A stretch of DNA of 54,973 nucleotides from Promethearchaeota archaeon. GTDB taxonomy: Archaea > Asgardarchaeota > Lokiarchaeia > Sigyniarchaeales > SOKP01. Below the pieces are notes generated by a model. It had not been told where the DNA came from and ran no database searches. It worked only from the letters and a program-made list of their open reading frames with translations. The stretch lies in contig JBHLMP010000021.1 of the NCBI GenBank assembly GCA_048938025.1, forward strand, positions 1-54,973, given 5' to 3'. Below, in pieces: positions 4,243 through 42,222 of this stretch (within the stretch, counting starts at the first letter, position 1; each line of letters opens with the position of its first letter). The translations under genes were made by a program, and so were the position numbers.

Positions 4243-6666
4243 TTATTTTCGTTGTCTTTTAATTATTATACCAGAAACAATAAGTATTCCTATTATGAAG
4301 ACTATTACATTATATCCTGGGATTATAGGTTCTTCCTCTGGTGCAGTTACTGGAATATAAGACATCGCCGAAATTACTCCCATTGGTCCCCAAGCTTCCA
4401 TTTCAATAGTGATTGAGTTGGTTCCATAATCGTAGATAATAGATGCATAAAAGTCTGGAGGAGCCGGATCCCATTCTAATGTTCCGCTCATGTTATAAGC
4501 AAAAAATAATGGTGCAATATCGTGGAGATCGAGTGAAGACGGAAATGTAATTGTCATAGTCAAATTACCAACTATTAATCCATTATTAACTATAAGTTGA
4601 TCAAAATAGGCTAAAGCAGTACCATTAGGCAAGGAAGCATTCACAGGATTATAGGGAAGAAAATTATAGATATATTCAACTCCAGGACCTCCAACAGCAA
4701 CATCAAACTCAACATTTACGGTCATATCTGTTATAAAATCACTCTGTAATGGAAAACTGTGTGTACCAGGAGCACATGCCCTATAAAATTTAGGATAAAC
4801 TGACATGTAATTCCATCCTCCTCCTGGCCCTGGCAAATTACCCCAGCCATCCATCATGGTCATTCTACCCGAAGCCTCATCAAAGTAGAAGTGTAGCGTT
4901 CTATCTAATGTGGAATTTCTAAGGATTACATGTCCAGTACTATATGTTATATCGTCGTAAACAGGACTAAACGCATCAAAAATATTTGTAAGTTCTGAAA
5001 CAGAGGTATCTTCAGGCATTAAGATTGGCATTAAGCGCATTTCAAAAATTATTGGTGAAATTGGCCAATAGATATTTGCTATAGCAAAGAAATCTGTACC
5101 ACCATAATCCCATAAGAGTGTTGATGGATTCCATCCTTCATAAGAAGCAAATGGACAAGAGAAAAACTGATACTCTGGTTGACCTGAAGGTAAAGTCCAT
5201 GGAATTCCATAATAATTATAATATTCTTCTATAAATGTTAGATTCGCGAAATATGTATAAGTTGCAATTATTGTTGCTTTAACATCTCTAAATCCATTCT
5301 CATAATCATCATTTTGTTTGAAATATATAATATCACCAATATTTACCGACCAATCAACTAAACTATGCGTTTTTAATTCGTATAACATAAAACTACCGTT
5401 AATAAACATTTCAAAAGAATTAGCCATACCGGTAGTTTTACTTATAATAATTCTTACATAGTCTGTACCAGTGGAATTCCTTAAAAAAACGTCATAATAT
5501 CCATTTTCATTATAGTGGATCTCATCAAATTGCATAGTCTCCGAGATACGAAGTGTATCATTATTCCACATAAATTCAATGTGTTCCCGGGGAATATTAA
5601 TAGGCCAGAGAAAAGGCATTATATTTTCCTCTTGGGCATCATCATAATATTGAGGATAAAAATTATTGGCTGCGCCTACTATAACATTATCCATGAATTC
5701 ATAATCAGTTCCATTCCACCAGGATCTATCAGCATAAGCAACTTCATAAACCATATAAACAGGTTCTTCCTCTGAGAATCCATTTTTAGTCTTATTAAAT
5801 AAAATTGGAGAAAATCCTGTAATATTTATTTTCCATTCCATAGCTTCTTCAAAAGGATCAGGATCCTCAACGGAATCATAGTAAAAGGTATCTCCGGGAC
5901 TTACACCCCACTCAACCTCGTCGGTGATATCATAATCGAAGACTTGTCTCATTGTAGCGTTAATATAAACCGGACCCTCACCCATATTAGCAATTAAAAA
6001 TGCACTGCCCATTTCCATTGTACCATTATTAAAATACGTCCCATCAGTGAAATAACCTTCAGTTTCATTATAAAAGTATATTCTATTTCCAGGACCAGTT
6101 GAATAATTACTAAAACTATTAAATGCCATTTGATACATCGGTGATCCATAAAAAGATTCATTTAGAATGCCAGCTATAATATCCACGTCGAAGTTTGAGC
6201 CGTTAATTGGTAGAAGAAAAGGCATTCCATTACGACCTGCCATATATTTATGCTTAATTGGATCAGCATCATGATATCCGAAGAGGGCAAGTTCTTGGGA
6301 ATCGTCATATGCTTCTAGCTCAGAGAGGTCATTATAACATTGTGTAGCGTTTACTTGGGAATAGTCCCTGACTCCATAACCAGCATCGATTGTAACGTTA
6401 TTAATAGATGTTATATTATAAATCCAGATATCCTTAAACATCATATAGATTTCACCAGTACTGGCATTTGTTAATATGAATTCTCCTTCAAAATAGATTT
6501 GATCTCCTACCTCAACATCCCAGTGCCATCCATTGTTAGGATGTGCGACAGGTATATCGTCGGGGCCTCCTTGAACATTTGTCATCAGTGAACTTAACGC
6601 TAATAGTGTAGGAATAGTAATTAAAAGAATTAATATATATTGTTTGCTCTTTTTTAAATTTCTCAT
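4243..6666 (-). CDS. Large secreted cell-surface glycoprotein with IPGY (Loki-CTERM-like) C-terminal anchor
   Basis: N-terminal signal peptide; many N-x-S/T sequons; ends IIPGY + hydrophobic helix + KRQRK; three internal WxVxxGDxxY units. Confidence 0.8.
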   Translation of the reverse strand: MRNLKKSKQYILILLITIPTLLALSSLMTNVQGGPDDIPVAHPNNGWHWDVEVGDQIYFEGEFILTNASTGEIYMMFKDIWIYNITSINNVTIDAGYGVRDYSQVNATQCYNDLSELEAYDDSQELALFGYHDADPIKHKYMAGRNGMPFLLPINGSNFDVDIIAGILNESFYGSPMYQMAFNSFSNYSTGPGNRIYFYNETEGYFTDGTYFNNGTMEMGSAFLIANMGEGPVYINATMRQVFDYDITDEVEWGVSPGDTFYYDSVEDPDPFEEAMEWKINITGFSPILFNKTKNGFSEEEPVYMVYEVAYADRSWWNGTDYEFMDNVIVGAANNFYPQYYDDAQEENIMPFLWPINIPREHIEFMWNNDTLRISETMQFDEIHYNENGYYDVFLRNSTGTDYVRIIISKTTGMANSFEMFINGSFMLYELKTHSLVDWSVNIGDIIYFKQNDDYENGFRDVKATIIATYTYFANLTFIEEYYNYYGIPWTLPSGQPEYQFFSCPFASYEGWNPSTLLWDYGGTDFFAIANIYWPISPIIFEMRLMPILMPEDTSVSELTNIFDAFSPVYDDITYSTGHVILRNSTLDRTLHFYFDEASGRMTMMDGWGNLPGPGGGWNYMSVYPKFYRACAPGTHSFPLQSDFITDMTVNVEFDVAVGGPGVEYIYNFLPYNPVNASLPNGTALAYFDQLIVNNGLIVGNLTMTITFPSSLDLHDIAPLFFAYNMSGTLEWDPAPPDFYASIIYDYGTNSITIEMEAWGPMGVISAMSYIPVTAPEEEPIIPGYNVIVFIIGILIVSGIIIKRQRK

Positions 6667-37174: not shown

Positions 37175-37444
37175 TTGGTTGAAATGAGTTCTGGAAAACT
37201 GGTAAAATTTTACAATGATGTTTTAAAAAGCAGATATAATAATTCGGTAGATCATTATTTTTCTCTTTCTAATTGTGTAGTTTCATTTTCTTCTTTGTCT
37301 AAAAACAAACAAACTTCTTGGATTTATTTCGGAAATGAAAAGATACCATTTAAAGAGAGACATCCAGTATTCAAGATGATATTAAGAAATGAATTTTCTA
37401 ATGCTATAAAGGAATTTAGTAGAAACCTTAATAAAAATAAATAA
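37175..37444 (+). CDS. Small hypothetical protein (paralog of 41965-42222)
   Basis: IYFGNEKIPFKERHPVFKMILRNEFSNAIKEF is shared with the 41965 ORF. Confidence 0.7.
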   Translation: MVEMSSGKLVKFYNDVLKSRYNNSVDHYFSLSNCVVSFSSLSKNKQTSWIYFGNEKIPFKERHPVFKMILRNEFSNAIKEFSRNLNKNK

Positions 37445-37539
37445 AGATTTTTTGACATTAATAGGAAAAAAGTATTGTGTTAAAAAATACTAATTTTTCT
37501 CTTTAGACGTATTAATTTATATTTAGTAAGAAAAGTCCA

Positions 37540-37553
37540 AATTATTTAAATAA
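37540..37553 (+). promoter_or_regulatory. Probable TATA element of surface-protein copy 1
   Basis: AATTATTTAAATAA is conserved at an equivalent position upstream of both paralogs (37540 and 38490). Confidence 0.5.
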
Positions 37554-37617
37554 CTGAAGTACTAATATCAATTTATCTAAAAAAATTTTATAAGAAAAAA
37601 GCCTATATTGAAAGAAA

Positions 37618-38343
37618 ATGATAAAAAGAAATGCATTATTAGCTGTTTTTGGTATTCTTGTCTTTTTTTCAGTATTAAATTTCTTGCCAGTCGTAAATGG
37701 TTATGATTATATATTTACTGATGTTGAAGACGATGTTTATAGATATTGTGAAAGTACTGATCAAACAGTTGTTGGAGATTATCATGACGAAATTGATATT
37801 GTTAAACTTAATGTTACTGGAAAGTACGCAAGTTTTACTGTAGCAGGTGATCTTGGTGATTGGAACGGTAGTTATTGGGCCGCTCTTATTTTTTCTTCTC
37901 AATTTATTCCATGGGAGGGTCCTCTCAATTTTGCCTGGAGGGTTCCTTATTATTATATAGATTTTGACTCCCCTTCTTTTGTATCTTTAGAGAGAGGTTA
38001 TAGTTTGGGAGAGGGCGATTTTGCTTATGAAGTATGGAATGGTACAGCTTGGGAAGATGAAATTACTGGTACAGCAGCAAATATACTTAATGAAAGTTCA
38101 CAACATTCAATAATTGCCTATATTCCTGATGCAGTTGAGGAAATTCCCAGCAATATGAAATGTCTGCTATATATAAAGTGTTGGGAACCCCCTTCTTATG
38201 ATTGTACGTATGCGGATTTTGCCCCTGCTCTGCCTACTGCTGGAGGAGGAGGTAACATTCCAGGTTATAACTTATTCATACTGTTCTGTGTGATGATTGG
38301 TATTTCTATACTTCTTGTAAGAAGACGAAATAAATTAAAATAA
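37618..38343 (+). CDS. Secreted surface protein with IPGY anchor, tandem copy 1
   Basis: Signal peptide, DVEDDV and DEIDIVKL acidic motifs, GGGGNIPGY-TM-RRRNK. Confidence 0.85.
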   Translation: MIKRNALLAVFGILVFFSVLNFLPVVNGYDYIFTDVEDDVYRYCESTDQTVVGDYHDEIDIVKLNVTGKYASFTVAGDLGDWNGSYWAALIFSSQFIPWEGPLNFAWRVPYYYIDFDSPSFVSLERGYSLGEGDFAYEVWNGTAWEDEITGTAANILNESSQHSIIAYIPDAVEEIPSNMKCLLYIKCWEPPSYDCTYADFAPALPTAGGGGNIPGYNLFILFCVMIGISILLVRRRNKLK

Positions 38344-38363
38344 TTTTCTTTTTTTCTTTTTAA

Positions 38364-38463
38364 TTATTCATAAAGAACGCAAGCCATCAAGGTAAATTTC
38401 CATGGAATGTCATTTCCATCATATACTAGAGATTTAACTTCATCAAAAGGTTCTTTTCCAGAA
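38364..38463 (-). pseudogene. Duplicated 3' fragment of the 39332-39691 gene
   Basis: 100 bp matching 39332-39431 with one mismatch by eye (agaacg vs aggacg). Confidence 0.85.
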
Positions 38464-38489
38464 GAAGAGAGAGGCCTCAAATTATTGCC

Positions 38490-38503
38490 AATTATTTAAA
38501 TAA
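38490..38503 (+). promoter_or_regulatory. Probable TATA element of surface-protein copy 2
   Basis: Same AATTATTTAAATAA as at 37540. Confidence 0.5.
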
Positions 38504-38563
38504 TCGATTAGCTTATTTTTATACAAAAAAGGTTAATTCTTAAAAACTATATATTGAAAGAAA

Positions 38564-39292
38564 ATGCCAAAAAGAAATATCTTATTAGCTGTTTTTGGTA
38601 TTCTTGTCCTTTTATCAGTAATAACTTTCTTACCAGTCGCAAATGGTTATAATTATATATATATTGATGCTGAAGACGATGTTTATCAATACTGTGATAG
38701 TACTGATGAAACTGATATTGGTGATTATCATGATGAAATAGATATTGTTAAACTAAATATTACTGGAAAGTATGCAAGTTTTACTGTAGCAGGTGATCTT
38801 GGTGATTGGGATCCTCATCATCATGCCGTAATTATTTTTTCTTCACATTTTACATATAATGGACCACACGAGGGTCTCTCTTGGAGATCTCCTTTTTACT
38901 TAATAGACTATGAATCCCCTTCTTTTGCTTCTTTAGAGAGAGCTTATAGTTTGGGCGGAGACGGATATGTTTATGAAGTATGGAATGGTACAGCTTGGGA
39001 AAATGAAACTACAGCAACTCCAGCAAATATACTTAATGAAAGTTCACAACATTCAATAATTGCCTATATTCCTGATGCAGTTGAGGAAATTCCCAGTGAT
39101 ATGAAATGCATACTAAATACCGAGGTAATACCGTGGTTTATACCTTCTGATTGTTGGTACGAGGATATTGCCCCTGCTCTGCCTACTGCTGGAGGAGGAG
39201 GCAACATTCCAGGTTATAACTTATTCATACTGTTCTGTGTGATGATTGGTATTACTATACTGCTTATAAGAAAACGAAATAAATTAAAATAA
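38564..39292 (+). CDS. Secreted surface protein with IPGY anchor, tandem copy 2
   Basis: Paralog of 37618-38343 with the same architecture. Confidence 0.85.
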   Translation: MPKRNILLAVFGILVLLSVITFLPVANGYNYIYIDAEDDVYQYCDSTDETDIGDYHDEIDIVKLNITGKYASFTVAGDLGDWDPHHHAVIIFSSHFTYNGPHEGLSWRSPFYLIDYESPSFASLERAYSLGGDGYVYEVWNGTAWENETTATPANILNESSQHSIIAYIPDAVEEIPSDMKCILNTEVIPWFIPSDCWYEDIAPALPTAGGGGNIPGYNLFILFCVMIGITILLIRKRNKLK

Positions 39293-39331
39293 GTCCTTAT
39301 TTTTTCTTTTTATTTACACAATATAAATCTA

Positions 39332-39691
39332 TTATTCATAAAGGACGCAAGCCATCAAGGTAAATTTCCATGGAATGTCATTTCCATCATATACTAGAGA
39401 TTTAACTTCATCAAAAGGTTCTTTTCCAGAAAAATCTTTAAAAGTTTTCCATGCGAGTTTTCCTATGGCTTGCTCATTTTCCGATATTTCTAAAAATCGT
39501 TCTTTAATCCCTGCCCAGTAAATTCGTTTCATATCTATTATTTTTTTTAATTCAGGCAAATCAATTAAGCCTTCCGTAACTAAATTCTCACTAACCAGTT
39601 GGAAGTGTTTACTAAATTTTCTAGAAATCTCTTCTGGATTACCTTCTGTTCGATTGTATAAAAAAACTAATCCAATTGCTTTCATTTTCAA
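39332..39691 (-). CDS. Hypothetical protein
   Basis: 119-aa ORF with globular composition. Confidence 0.7.
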   Translation of the reverse strand: MKMKAIGLVFLYNRTEGNPEEISRKFSKHFQLVSENLVTEGLIDLPELKKIIDMKRIYWAGIKERFLEISENEQAIGKLAWKTFKDFSGKEPFDEVKSLVYDGNDIPWKFTLMACVLYE

Positions 39692-40086: not shown

Positions 40087-40923
40087 TTAATAAACTTTGT
40101 TTATTTGATTCTTTCTTTTCTTAAATGTTAATGTTTTTGGTCCAAATAATAATAAAACAATTACTACAACAATATCAAGTAAAATTGAAAAAAGCAAATT
40201 GCCTAGTAATGTAAGATATTGTAGAAATATAAAATTAGATGCATTAATCGATGTGTGAAAAGTCATAGCTACTAATATACTACCATTTGTATTGTTATTT
40301 AACCAAGTGAATAATATCGATAATATAATTGTGGAAGATACAAAGAAAAAAAAGGTTTGATTCACATAAAGCGACCCAATTATATAAAATAAAGGAAAAT
40401 GCCACAGACCCCAAATCCCACCAAGAATTATACTCGAGTTAAGCGCATCATATACAGATTGAAGGTGCTCTAGTAAATAGCCTCTCCATCCAACTTCTTC
40501 TTGAAGAGGACCTCCAAGGAAAAAAATTATAATATATAAATAAATAATATTTTTGAAATCTATTAAAGGATTTAATCCTTGGGGAGTATTTCCATCAATA
40601 CTTAATGCAAGTATAAAGGAAACACCAAATAAAGCAGGAACCAAAAAGATTGATACTAAAAAATAATACCATTTATGCCAATGCCAACATCGGTGCCAAA
40701 GATTTTGGGTAGCTTCAAAACCCTCGCCGAAAAGAGTGAGGAAAAATCCTGCAAGAGAGGGACCAAATGACCCTATTAGCATTAAACCATTAAAAACTAA
40801 AGAGTAATTAAATAATCCAAAGGAAGAAAGCAAACTAGGCAACCATAAAAGCCACGAAAATGAAAATGTAATTATGATAAATAAAGTTACATTCTTATTA
40901 TGAGGGTAATAGTCGTCTAACAT
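40087..40923 (-). CDS. CPBP (Abi/CAAX type II) intramembrane protease
   Basis: EEVGWRG, WGLWH, FHTSIN; multiple TM segments. Confidence 0.92.
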   Translation of the reverse strand: MLDDYYPHNKNVTLFIIITFSFSWLLWLPSLLSSFGLFNYSLVFNGLMLIGSFGPSLAGFFLTLFGEGFEATQNLWHRCWHWHKWYYFLVSIFLVPALFGVSFILALSIDGNTPQGLNPLIDFKNIIYLYIIIFFLGGPLQEEVGWRGYLLEHLQSVYDALNSSIILGGIWGLWHFPLFYIIGSLYVNQTFFFFVSSTIILSILFTWLNNNTNGSILVAMTFHTSINASNFIFLQYLTLLGNLLFSILLDIVVVIVLLLFGPKTLTFKKRKNQINKVY

Positions 40924-41964: not shown

Positions 41965-42222
41965 GTGAGATTGAAATTGAGTTTAGAATTAATTAATAAA
42001 GGAATTAATAATATAGAGAAAAGAAAACAAGTTAATGCACCTCAAGAGTTTATTGACATTTCAACTTTAGCAACTCCTTTTTCTAGTATTTTTGAGAAAT
42101 TTTCTCCTTCAGATATTTATACTGGAAATGAGATTATTCCTTTTAAAAAAAAAGACCCAGAATTCAAACTTATATTAATTTATGAGTTTGGAAATGCGTT
42201 AAAAGAGTTAAAAAAAAAATAG
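41965..42222 (+). CDS. Small hypothetical protein (paralog of 37175-37444)
   Basis: IYTGNEIIPFKKKDPEFKLILIYEFGNALKEL. Confidence 0.7.
   Translation: MRLKLSLELINKGINNIEKRKQVNAPQEFIDISTLATPFSSIFEKFSPSDIYTGNEIIPFKKKDPEFKLILIYEFGNALKELKKK

What the first reader, a model, noticed from the sequence alone, without database searches (positions are those of the whole stretch)
37540..39431. Recent tandem duplication of a surface protein with hypervariable patches
The duplicated unit includes the promoter, the gene and 100 bp of the neighbouring gene. That non-functional 100 bp differs at about one base, and framework segments are near-identical, yet two patches have diverged sharply with indels: WNGSYWAALIFSSQFIPWEGPLNFAW vs WDPHHHAVIIFSSHFTYNGPHEGLSW, and LYIKCWEPPSYDCTYADF vs LNTEVIPWFIPSDCWYEDI. 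The patches are aromatic-rich, like binding loops. Inference: diversifying selection or cassette-like recombination on an adhesin or virus receptor, with constant framework and variable loops.
Basis: partly seen in the sequence, partly recalled or inferred. Interest (0 to 1): 0.72.

Follow-up and report, generated by a model that had tools for sequence, protein, structure and literature searches.

The report
Old surface-protein gene pair, partly homogenised
Two neighbouring genes of an Asgard archaeon encode anchored cell-surface proteins with two very variable loops; they are an old gene pair whose tail ends were recently copied onto each other, not a fresh duplicate that mutated fast.

Summary
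The tandem repeat is real. Gene A (37618-38343) and gene B (38564-39292) each have their own upstream region, and a 104-nt relic of the convergent gene orf119 lies between them. Contigs from public runs bridge the junction.

Both proteins have a signal peptide, one beta-sandwich resembling the glucodextranase C-terminal domain/CBM9/DOMON group (Z 9.3 and 10.1), and a Loki-CTERM anchor. The family is small, has no Pfam model, and every named member comes from an Asgard genome assembly.

The "recent duplication" reading fails:
- The 5' non-coding part (56 matches, 15 mismatches, 12 gap columns) and the framework (dS 0.32) are as diverged as between species.
- Only the core, the C-terminus and the relic are near-identical (dS 0.07; 102/104).
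- In the 5' part, B groups with another assembly's second copy; an AU test rejects A+B (p 0.008). The 3' part joins A+B.
- A congener carries the same spacer with a decayed relic and has no orf119.

Best reading: an old tandem pair with recent 3' gene conversion.

The two patches are the family's two most variable regions. Positive selection is not shown (pairwise omega is mostly below 1). No donor cassettes and no reverse transcriptase were found. The ligand is unknown.

The parts
37541..37617 (+). Upstream region of gene A. It holds an AT-rich TATA-like motif (about 37541-37555) and a conserved 17 nt before the ATG.
   Evidence: The motif and the pre-ATG stretch are conserved in copy B, G050 and G075. 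Promoter function is inferred, not tested.
37618..38343 (+). Gene A, 241 aa: signal peptide, beta-sandwich ectodomain (about residues 28-203), Gly-rich linker, Loki-CTERM anchor (214-240). Its patches are of the form seen in most close relatives.
   Evidence: NF033507, 27.9 bits against a cut-off of 19.9; pLDDT 83.4.
37864..37941 (+). Patch 1 of A (residues 83-108): a strand plus a beta-hairpin. This is the family's most variable region.
38075..38150 (+). A 76-nt run identical to copy B, lying in the conserved core. Putative conversion tract or recombination site.
   Evidence: in 10,000 permutations the longest identical run averaged 25.5 nt and never exceeded 63; the core is 98% identical between A and B but 89% between A and G050.
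38161..38226 (+). Patch 2 of A (residues 182-203): the second variable region. It includes the nearly invariant Cys196.
   Evidence: It is 84% identical in DNA to patch 2 of G075's downstream copy.
38344..38362 (+). Short form of the 3'UTR. It lacks about 19 nt that are present behind gene B and behind the G050 copy. G075's inter-copy spacer has the same short form.
   Evidence: alignment.
38363..38466 (-). Non-functional relic of the last about 100 nt of orf119. It is 102/104 identical to 39331-39434.
   Evidence: It is 96/104 identical to the G050 orthologue. A decayed homologue lies in the G075 spacer (local score 46, against 17.3 +/- 2.4 for shuffles; 0 of 1000 shuffles reach it).
38467..38563 (+). 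Duplication junction and the upstream region of gene B (TATA-like motif about 38487-38501).
   Evidence: Bridged by contigs of runs X1 and X2.
38564..39292 (+). Gene B, 242 aa, with the same architecture as A but derived patches.
   Evidence: 27.3 bits; pLDDT 82.8, same strand order as A; 1ulv_A, Z 10.1.
38810..38887 (+). Patch 1 of B (residues 83-108). Its best match anywhere is 42%, to the second copy of assembly ACFE9T.
39107..39175 (+). Patch 2 of B (residues 182-204).
39332..39691 (-). orf119, a convergent neighbour of unknown function. It is the source of the relic and the likely donor that keeps the relic near-identical.
   Evidence: An 88-89% identical orthologue lies next to the single copy in G050 and in locus L046. 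It was not found in G075.

Best explanation
Window 37541-39434 holds a genuine tandem pair of paralogous genes for small cell-surface proteins of an Asgard (Promethearchaeota) archaeon. Each protein has a signal peptide, one beta-sandwich ectodomain of the glucodextranase-C/CBM9/DOMON-like fold, a glycine-rich linker and a Loki-CTERM membrane-anchor signal.

The pair is old. A duplication that carried the upstream region, the gene and the last about 100 nt of the convergent gene orf119 predates the split of this genome from congeners. The two copies then diverged unevenly: A kept the common form of the two variable hairpin regions, and B acquired a derived form.

In this lineage the 3' third of the unit was recently homogenised by non-reciprocal recombination (gene conversion) between the two units. 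The homogenised parts are the conserved core, the linker and anchor, and the orf119 relic, which was refreshed from the intact orf119 968 nt downstream. The tracts stop at the diverged patch 2 and at the 3'UTR indel.

Shown: the repeat is real, divergence is mosaic, segment phylogenies conflict, a decayed relic sits in a relative, the two patches are the family's variable regions, and the anchor signal and the fold resemblance are present.

Inferred: the direction and mechanism of conversion; that both copies are expressed from their own promoters; and that the patches form a ligand-binding surface (glycan or partner/virus contact) for which the two copies offer two specificities.
For: Real tandem: (junction contigs in X1 and X2; B-specific upstream region in X4 from another study).

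Mosaic divergence:
- DNA identity A/B against A/G050 by segment: signal 86/84, N framework 89/90, patch 1 64/69, middle 80/70, core 98/89, patch 2 65/71, C-terminus 96/85.
- dS between A and B is 0.32 in the framework and 0.07 in core plus C-terminus (Fisher p 0.010). dS of seven neighbour genes between G000 and G050 is 0.18-0.60.
- Non-coding parts: 5' region 56 matches, 15 mismatches, 12 gap columns; relic 102/104 (p 3e-5).
- Identical runs of 87, 76 and 51 nt, against a permutation mean of 25.5 and a maximum of 63 in 10,000 permutations.

Conflicting trees: in the 5' part (157 columns, 18 rows) B groups with ACFE9T_10655 at 98/97 support, and A+B is rejected (AU p 0.0077). In the 3' part without patch 2 (66 columns) A+B is supported at 96 SH-aLRT.

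Old spacer: G075's two copies are separated by 222-226 nt (220 nt here). That spacer holds a decayed orf119 3' end with three deletions (score 46 against shuffles 17.3 +/- 2.4, 0 of 1000) and the same short 3'UTR form. The two spacers align with score 60 against 22 +/- 2.8 for shuffles. G075 (94% complete) has no orf119 by this query, so its relic had no donor.

Pairs elsewhere: adjacent or near-adjacent locus tags in 3 other assemblies.

Both ORFs are intact, with omega below 1 in every segment except the signal peptide (1.47, from 2 synonymous and 9 nonsynonymous differences).

Protein: Loki-CTERM over the cut-off. AF2 models have pLDDT 83.4 and 82.8. The top structural match for both models is 1ulv_A residues 775-1020, with Z 9.3 (146 aligned) and Z 10.1 (152 aligned). 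It is followed by 4jpq_B, 2ivf_C and 1i82_A (CBM9) in the top five rows of both lists, and by 7b04_C further down (rank 9 for A, rank 15 for B). The ESM Atlas gives a lead to PF09985 at 0.89.

Patches are the family's variable regions.
Against: - The order of copy types differs between genomes. Here the common type is upstream and the derived type downstream; in G075 the common type is downstream. Simple positional orthology therefore fails, and extra unequal crossovers or losses must be assumed.
- G050 and locus L046 carry a single copy next to orf119, so copy number is unstable. A later re-duplication in this lineage cannot be ruled out.
- Patch 2 and a 19-nt 3'UTR indel lie inside the near-identical 3' third, so several short tracts or patchy repair are needed.
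- The 3' tree rests on only 66 columns. An AU test planned for it did not run (one search gave no answer).
- DNA of two of the paired assemblies (ACFE9T, ACFFD2) could not be fetched, so their spacers are unseen.
- The fold match (Z 9-10) is only modestly above the tool's stated background of 7-8. No Pfam model matches, and no ligand is known.
- No expression data were examined.
Confidence: 0.65

Rival explanations
1. One reading: a very recent tandem duplication, dated by the near-identical 104-nt relic, followed by rapid in-place diversification of two binding loops under positive selection.
For: The relic is 102/104 identical. Patch dN is high (0.41-0.42 between A and B). Patch omega exceeds 1 in 2 of the 5 closest independent family pairs. 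G050 and L046 have only one copy.
Against: Synonymous and non-coding divergence outside the patches is at between-species level: framework dS 0.32, and the 5' non-coding part has 15 mismatches plus 12 gap columns over 77 nt. An AU test rejects A+B as sisters for the 5' part (p 0.0077). G075 has the same spacer with a decayed relic. Patch omega between A and B is 0.55, and the two values above 1 are not significant (p 0.29 and 1.0).
Confidence: 0.08
2. A recent duplication in this lineage, after which the 5' two-thirds and patch 2 of the downstream copy were replaced by homologous recombination with a diverged allele imported from another strain.
For: The same mosaic pattern as in the best explanation. 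Single-copy relatives exist. Other alleles are present in the same kind of sample, for example a contig in run X4 with 105 unlike letters at patch 2. Orthologues themselves look mosaic: A's patch 2 is 84% identical to G075's downstream copy but 71% to G050's.
Against: It needs an independent origin of the same spacer, with the orf119 relic and the short 3'UTR, in G075. No close donor is known: B's nearest relative in the 5' part is 42-80% identical by segment. B's own upstream non-coding region is also diverged.
Confidence: 0.17
3. An assembly artefact: two strain alleles of one locus chained in tandem.
For: The genome is a metagenome-type assembly of 88 contigs with 5.1% contamination. In run X1 the junction contig has a lower word depth (17.8) than the flanking contigs (45-60).
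Against: Contigs of X1 and X2 join the orf119 relic to B's own upstream region with no differences. The junction carries about 20 nt found at neither flank. The two upstream regions differ by indels. G075 was assembled independently and has the same architecture.
Confidence: 0.02
4. Programmed diversification: a diversity-generating retroelement, or silent donor cassettes feeding the patches.
For: Two sharply bounded variable patches sit in an otherwise conserved surface protein.
Against: There is no RVT_1 reverse transcriptase in the 96.7%-complete genome. No second copy of any patch was found by blastn-short or tblastn; only the self hits stand out. The patch differences include indels and all base types.
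Confidence: 0.02

Closest known systems
[quoted passage not shown]
   Same: A beta-sandwich of about 180 residues. It is the best structural match for both copies (Z 9.3 and 10.1, 146-152 residues aligned), and other DOMON-like or CBM9 chains rank close behind. The language-model lead points to the same family. In the dextran debranching enzyme MdDDE such a domain is followed by a C-terminal transmembrane region and appears to recognise glucan chains (PMC10074034, passages read).
   Different: There is no sequence match to PF09985 or to any other Pfam model, with about 10% identity in the structural alignment. The domain here stands alone, with no enzyme attached. It carries a Loki-CTERM anchor. 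Its ligand is unknown.
lpl tandem lipoprotein-like paralogue cluster of Staphylococcus aureus (Tsuru and Kobayashi 2008, PMC2568036; abstract and outline read)
   Same: Tandem paralogues for surface-exposed proteins. A highly conserved stretch inside each ORF serves as a recombination site. The 5' and 3' parts of one ORF give conflicting phylogenies. The intergenic region travels with the flanking gene parts.
   Different: This case is archaeal, with two copies rather than a long array. Here recombination homogenises the 3' third and a neighbour-gene relic. The protein fold and the anchor are unrelated.
Gene conversion between paralogous merozoite surface antigen genes of Plasmodium falciparum (PMC10919680; search listing and start of abstract only)
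   Same: Non-reciprocal exchange between neighbouring paralogues of a surface protein produces mosaic divergence.
   Different: That is a eukaryotic parasite under host immunity, where conversion is proposed to create dimorphic alleles. Here it erases divergence outside the variable patches.
PGF-CTERM/archaeosortase-anchored archaeal surface proteins (recalled from general knowledge, not from a call)
   Same: A C-terminal tripartite signal: a short motif (here Pro-Gly-Tyr), a hydrophobic helix and a basic tail. The signal follows a Gly-rich linker on a secreted protein.
   Different: The signal matches the separate Loki-CTERM model. No exosortase or archaeosortase (PF09721) was found in this genome, so the processing enzyme, if there is one, is unknown.

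Membership tests
Loki-CTERM sorting-domain proteins (NCBIfam NF033507) | Match to the 27-position model over its curated cut-off, at the extreme C-terminus | tested here: met
   A scores 27.9 bits and B 27.3 bits against a cut-off of 19.9, at residues 214-240 and 215-241. They are the two best of 13 places over the cut-off in the genome.
Loki-CTERM sorting-domain proteins (NCBIfam NF033507) | N-terminal secretion signal, so that the domain is outside the cell | tested here: inconclusive
   A basic N-terminus is followed by a hydrophobic helix at residues 2-22 in both models. No signal-peptide predictor was available.
Loki-CTERM sorting-domain proteins (NCBIfam NF033507) | A cognate sorting enzyme in the same genome | tested here: inconclusive
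   PF09721 (exosortase/archaeosortase) was not found in the 96.7%-complete genome. A CPBP/Rce1-like protease lies at 40087-40923, but no link to the signal was tested.
Glucodextran_C (PF09985) / CBM9 / DOMON-like superfamily | Sequence match to the family model | tested here: not met
   Neither A nor B has a Pfam hit at E <= 0.1. PF09985 has no match anywhere in the genome. Of 54 family representatives scanned, 52 have no Pfam family at E <= 0.01 and the other 2 have unrelated hits.
Glucodextran_C (PF09985) / CBM9 / DOMON-like superfamily | Shared beta-sandwich fold covering most of the domain | tested here: met
   1ulv_A residues 775-1020: Z 9.3, rmsd 3.9, 146 aligned; Z 10.1, rmsd 3.9, 152 aligned, 3.3 Z units above the next row. 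CBM9 1i82_A gives Z 6.0 and 6.2; 2ivf_C gives 6.4 in both searches. Foldseek alone found nothing at E <= 0.001.
Glucodextran_C (PF09985) / CBM9 / DOMON-like superfamily | Binding of a sugar or haem ligand at the known site | not testable with these tools
   Model coordinates are not readable here, and no binding assay is possible.
Tandem paralogues under gene conversion (concerted evolution) | Conflicting phylogenies of different segments of the same genes | tested here: met
   5' part: B groups with ACFE9T_10655 at 98/97, and A+B is rejected at p 0.0077. 3' part: A+B is supported at 96.
Tandem paralogues under gene conversion (concerted evolution) | Identical runs and low silent divergence beyond chance, also in non-coding DNA | tested here: met
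   Identical runs of 87, 76 and 51 nt against a permutation maximum of 63. dS is 0.07 against 0.32. The relic has 2/104 mismatches against 15/71 in the 5' non-coding part.
Tandem paralogues under gene conversion (concerted evolution) | Duplication older than the homogenised tracts | tested here: met
   A decayed homologous relic and the shared short 3'UTR are present in G075's spacer. The relic is 96/104 identical to the G050 orthologue but 102/104 to its own genome's orf119.
Diversity-generating retroelement targets | Reverse transcriptase and a template repeat matching the variable region | tested here: not met
   There is no RVT_1 in the genome, and no second copy of any patch.
Cassette-based antigenic variation (silent donor copies) | Donor cassettes homologous to the variable patches elsewhere in the genome | tested here: not met
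   For all four patches, blastn-short and tblastn over the whole assembly gave only self hits above chance level. The assembly is 96.7% complete.

The most novel reading that the evidence does not exclude
The pair is a two-receptor recognition module on the Asgard cell surface. One paralogue keeps the common binding face, and the other explores new specificities in two hairpins that face viruses or syntrophic partner cells. Gene conversion preserves a shared scaffold and anchor. The 104-nt direct repeats let the population gain and lose the second copy; the junction contig has about a third of the flanking word depth in one sample, and close relatives carry a single copy.

A still bolder variant: the invariant His163 and Met180, in a DOMON-like sandwich, bind haem for extracellular electron transfer.
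Probability: 0.12. Interest if true: 0.7.

Novelty: new member of a known kind. Interest (0 to 1): 0.36.

Why it matters
Asgard archaea are the closest known relatives of eukaryotes, and they live in tight partnership with other cells. Almost nothing is known about the proteins on their surface. This locus defines a small surface-protein family that has no Pfam model and whose named members all come from Asgard genome assemblies. The family has a sugar-binding-module-like fold, two hypervariable regions, and a habit of occurring as tandem pairs.

The locus also gives a clear worked case of gene conversion between tandem paralogues in an Asgard genome. The case carries a methodological warning: a near-identical non-coding relic does not date a duplication when an intact donor copy lies nearby. 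The mechanism itself is textbook, so the interest is moderate.

Tried and rejected
- Sequence-family searches. Pfam and a profile search against PDB sequences gave nothing usable. The only PDB sequence hits were Rtt107 BRCT chains at E 0.002, judged spurious.
- Structure searches. Foldseek against the PDB and against viral models gave no match at E <= 0.001.
- Search for PF09985 in the genome: none found.
- Search for donor cassettes: none found.
- Search for a reverse transcriptase: none found.
- Comparison of spacers between the two subfamilies. The tandem spacers of subfamily 2 are homologous to each other but mostly not to this one: three comparisons with this spacer were at chance level and one was weak (G088, score 35 against 22.5 +/- 3.1). 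The two arrays are therefore not shown to share one origin.
- A/B heterodimer test (complex prediction, ectodomains). The job was lost twice on the remote machine and the queue was then full. There is no result, so nothing is claimed about binding.
- Mapping the patches onto one face of the model. This was not possible because model coordinates cannot be read.
- AU test on the 3' tree. One search returned no answer. The tree was rebuilt with the quick method without the test.
- Literature. 'Loki-CTERM' occurs in 0 papers of the library. A search for Asgard plus archaeosortase listed 8 of 24 papers, none on this family judging by title and abstract.
- Holes in read cover over B's body in run X1 are not interpreted.
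Full report
**What is there.** The window has about 28% G+C. Between 37541 and 39434 a unit of about 950 nt occurs twice, head to tail.

Each unit carries an AT-rich TATA-like motif about 65-75 nt before the ATG, an identical 17 nt just before the ATG, and one ORF. Gene A is 37618-38343 (241 aa) and gene B is 38564-39292 (242 aa).

Behind gene A lie 19 nt of 3'UTR and then 104 nt (38363-38466) that copy the 3' end of the convergent gene orf119 (39332-39691, minus strand). The copy has two mismatches, at 38376 and 38464. About 20 nt of junction sequence found at neither flank follow, and then B's upstream region.

**Is it real?** Logan contigs of two runs from one study cross the junction with no differences and with 33 nt on its left: X1 at 38434-38752 and X2 at 38434-38608. 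Either run may be the source sample. A run from another study (X4) holds A's 5' half, B's private upstream region and B's patch 1 without differences. A congener (G075) was assembled independently with the same architecture. A mis-assembly of two alleles is very unlikely.

**What the proteins are.**
- Both copies end in a Loki-CTERM sorting signal (NF033507; 27.9 and 27.3 bits against a cut-off of 19.9). They are the two best of 13 such places over the cut-off in the genome.
- Both begin with a basic and then hydrophobic N-terminus, modelled as a helix at residues 2-22.
- AF2 models built on a 30-sequence alignment are confident (pLDDT 83.4 and 82.8). They give the same order of 16-18 strands in one beta-sandwich at residues 28-205.
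- Foldseek found nothing at E <= 0.001 in the PDB or in viral models.
- The exhaustive aligner put the C-terminal domain of glucodextranase (1ulv_A, 775-1020) first for both models: Z 9.3 with 146 aligned, and Z 10.1 with 152 aligned and 3.3 Z units clear of the next row.
- Behind it came other members of the same DOMON-like/CBM9 group: 4jpq_B, 2ivf_C, 1i82_A, 7b04_C, 4zel and 4qi6/1d7c. The ESM Atlas lead to PF09985 (0.89) agrees.
- One paper (passages read) places Glucodextran_C in the DOMON-like superfamily, calls it CBM9-like, and describes an enzyme in which it precedes a C-terminal transmembrane region.
- Sequence membership is not met: no Pfam hit for A or B and none for PF09985 in the genome.
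- The family is small. There are 33 proteins at E <= 0.001 among 390 candidates, and every named one comes from a Promethearchaeota, Hodarchaeota, Hermodarchaeota or Lokiarchaeota assembly or from marine sediment.
- In the order, 19 of 154 genomes have a match at E <= 1e-10, all in one family.
- Among 1.84 billion cluster representatives, 64 match at E <= 0.001. I scanned 54 of these against Pfam, leaving out four near-identical or fragmentary close hits and six short fragments. Of the 54, 52 have no Pfam family.

**Is the duplication recent? No.** Divergence along the unit is very uneven, and it is uneven in silent and non-coding positions too.

DNA identity by segment:

| Segment | A vs B | A vs G050 single copy |
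|---|---|---|
| Signal peptide | 86% | 84% |
| N-terminal framework | 89% | 90% |
| Patch 1 | 64% | 69% |
| Middle | 80% | 70% |
| Core | 98% | 89% |
| Patch 2 | 65% | 71% |
| C-terminus | 96% | 85% |

- dS between A and B is 0.32 in the framework and 0.07 in core plus C-terminus (p 0.010). Seven neighbour genes between G000 and G050 have dS 0.18-0.60.
- The 5' non-coding part of the unit has 56 matches, 15 mismatches and 12 gap columns. That is no better than either copy against G050. The relic has 102/104 (p 3e-5).
- Identical runs of 87, 76 and 51 nt exceed all or nearly all of 10,000 permutations (mean 25.5, 99.9th percentile 52, maximum 63).

Selection on protein loops cannot produce this pattern. 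Recombination can.

**Phylogeny and relatives.**
- In a tree of the first 161 alignment columns (18 of the 30 aligned rows: the 12 close ones plus 6 outgroups), B groups with the second copy of assembly ACFE9T at 98/97 support. Forcing A+B together costs 16.1 log-likelihood units (AU p 0.0077).
- In the 3' part without patch 2 (66 columns), A+B is supported at 96. The two copies of assembly ACFFD2 also draw together there, which hints at the same process in that assembly.
- Pairs occur in three other assemblies by adjacent or near-adjacent locus tags.
- In G075 the two copies are separated by a spacer of nearly the same length. It aligns to this one with score 60, against 22 +/- 2.8 for shuffles.
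- That spacer starts with the same short 3'UTR form, whereas the stretches behind B and behind the G050 copy have the long form.
- It also contains a decayed orf119 3' end with three deletions (score 46 against 17.3 +/- 2.4; 0 of 1000 shuffles reach it).
- G075, 94% complete, has no orf119 by this query. Its relic had no donor and decayed.
- Here the donor lies 968 nt away, and the relic is closer to its own genome's orf119 (102/104) than to the orthologue in G050 (96/104).

The simplest account is an old tandem array with recent gene conversion of the 3' third in this lineage.

**What does not fit neatly.**
- The order of types differs. Here the common type is upstream; in G075 it is downstream.
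- G050 has a single copy, with an in-frame TAA. Locus L046 shows a copy next to orf119, but its contig is cut within that copy, so its copy number is unknown.
- The array has therefore expanded, contracted or exchanged copies. A re-duplication followed by import of a foreign allele remains a rival, which I put at 0.17.
- Patch 2 and a 19-nt indel sit inside the homogenised third. Several short tracts or patchy repair must be assumed.

**The patches.**
- Over 30 family members, the 25 most variable 10-residue windows all start at residues 88-102 or 181-190. These are the family's two hypervariable regions, so the 'constant framework, variable loops' picture holds at family level.
- Both patches are modelled with pLDDT 78-91 in both copies (A 86-91, B 78-91), as a strand plus a hairpin.
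- A has the form seen in most close relatives (65% identical to two of them in patch 1). B's patch 1 matches nothing better than 42%.
- Pairwise omega in the patches is 0.29-0.71 in the 8 pairs.
- Among the five closest independent pairs of subfamily 1 it is 0.40, 1.08, 2.39, 0.47 and 0.15. The two values above 1 rest on about 3 synonymous differences each (p 1.0 and 0.29).
- Patch dN is at or above framework dN in all five of those pairs. This fits relaxed or episodic selection, but positive selection is not shown.
- No donor cassettes exist for any patch, and the genome has no reverse transcriptase.

**Function.** The ligand is unknown. I commit to an extracellular binding module, most likely for a glycan, judging by the nearest folds. 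The two paralogues would offer two specificities on a shared scaffold. I rate the ligand-binding role at about 0.4. The test for an A/B complex could not be completed.

**Novelty.** Gene conversion between tandem surface-protein paralogues is well known; the S. aureus lpl cluster is one example (abstract read). The protein family and its Asgard setting are undescribed in the searched library. My verdict is a new member of a known kind, of moderate interest.

Noticed in passing
L034 (G050:C37), reverse strand, gene start at 5015 of the reversed locus: The single orthologous copy in congener G050 has an in-frame TAA where relatives have a Tyr codon (TAT). It is either a fresh pseudogene or an assembly error.
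   Followed up: partly
window 40087-40923 (-): A CPBP/Rce1-like intramembrane protease lies between orf80 and orf108 here but is absent from that place in G050. It has a weak hit to the myxosortase core model (E 1.2e-4). The genome has 13 Loki-CTERM signals over the cut-off but no exosortase or archaeosortase. A CPBP protease is therefore a candidate for processing this signal.
   Followed up: partly
G000:C77:16980-18701 (-); G050:C44; G054:C57; G088:C264: A second, distant subfamily (30-37% identity) also occurs as tandem pairs. Their spacers of 190-230 nt are homologous among themselves, and the upstream and downstream copies fall into separate clades. Pairing is a trait of the whole family.
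   Followed up: partly
window 38434-38752, against 37389-38463 and 39402-39683: In run X1 the contig across the junction has a word depth of 17.8, while the flanking contigs have 45-60. Contig depths are crude. If the difference is real, part of that population lacks this B copy, as deletion through the 104-nt repeats would produce.
   Followed up: no
window 38106-38173 and 39234-39287 (run X4, record 20): A 227-nt contig matches the core and the C-terminus with 5-6 differences each but has 105 unlike letters where patch 2 lies. This is a further allele or relative with another patch 2.
   Followed up: no
window 37175-37444 (+) and 41965-42222 (+): Two small ORFs (89 and 85 aa) are paralogues at about 37% identity. 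One lies directly upstream of gene A and the other upstream of a 216-aa membrane protein. Both are conserved in G050.
   Followed up: no
proteins A and B, residues 141-143, 163, 180, 44 and 196: An Asn-Gly-Thr sequon has Asn and Gly invariant and Thr nearly invariant across 30 members. His163 and Met180 are invariant. Cys44 and Cys196 are nearly invariant and may form a disulfide that ties patch 2 to the N-terminal sheet. His plus Met are haem ligands in some DOMON proteins (recalled, not tested).
   Followed up: no
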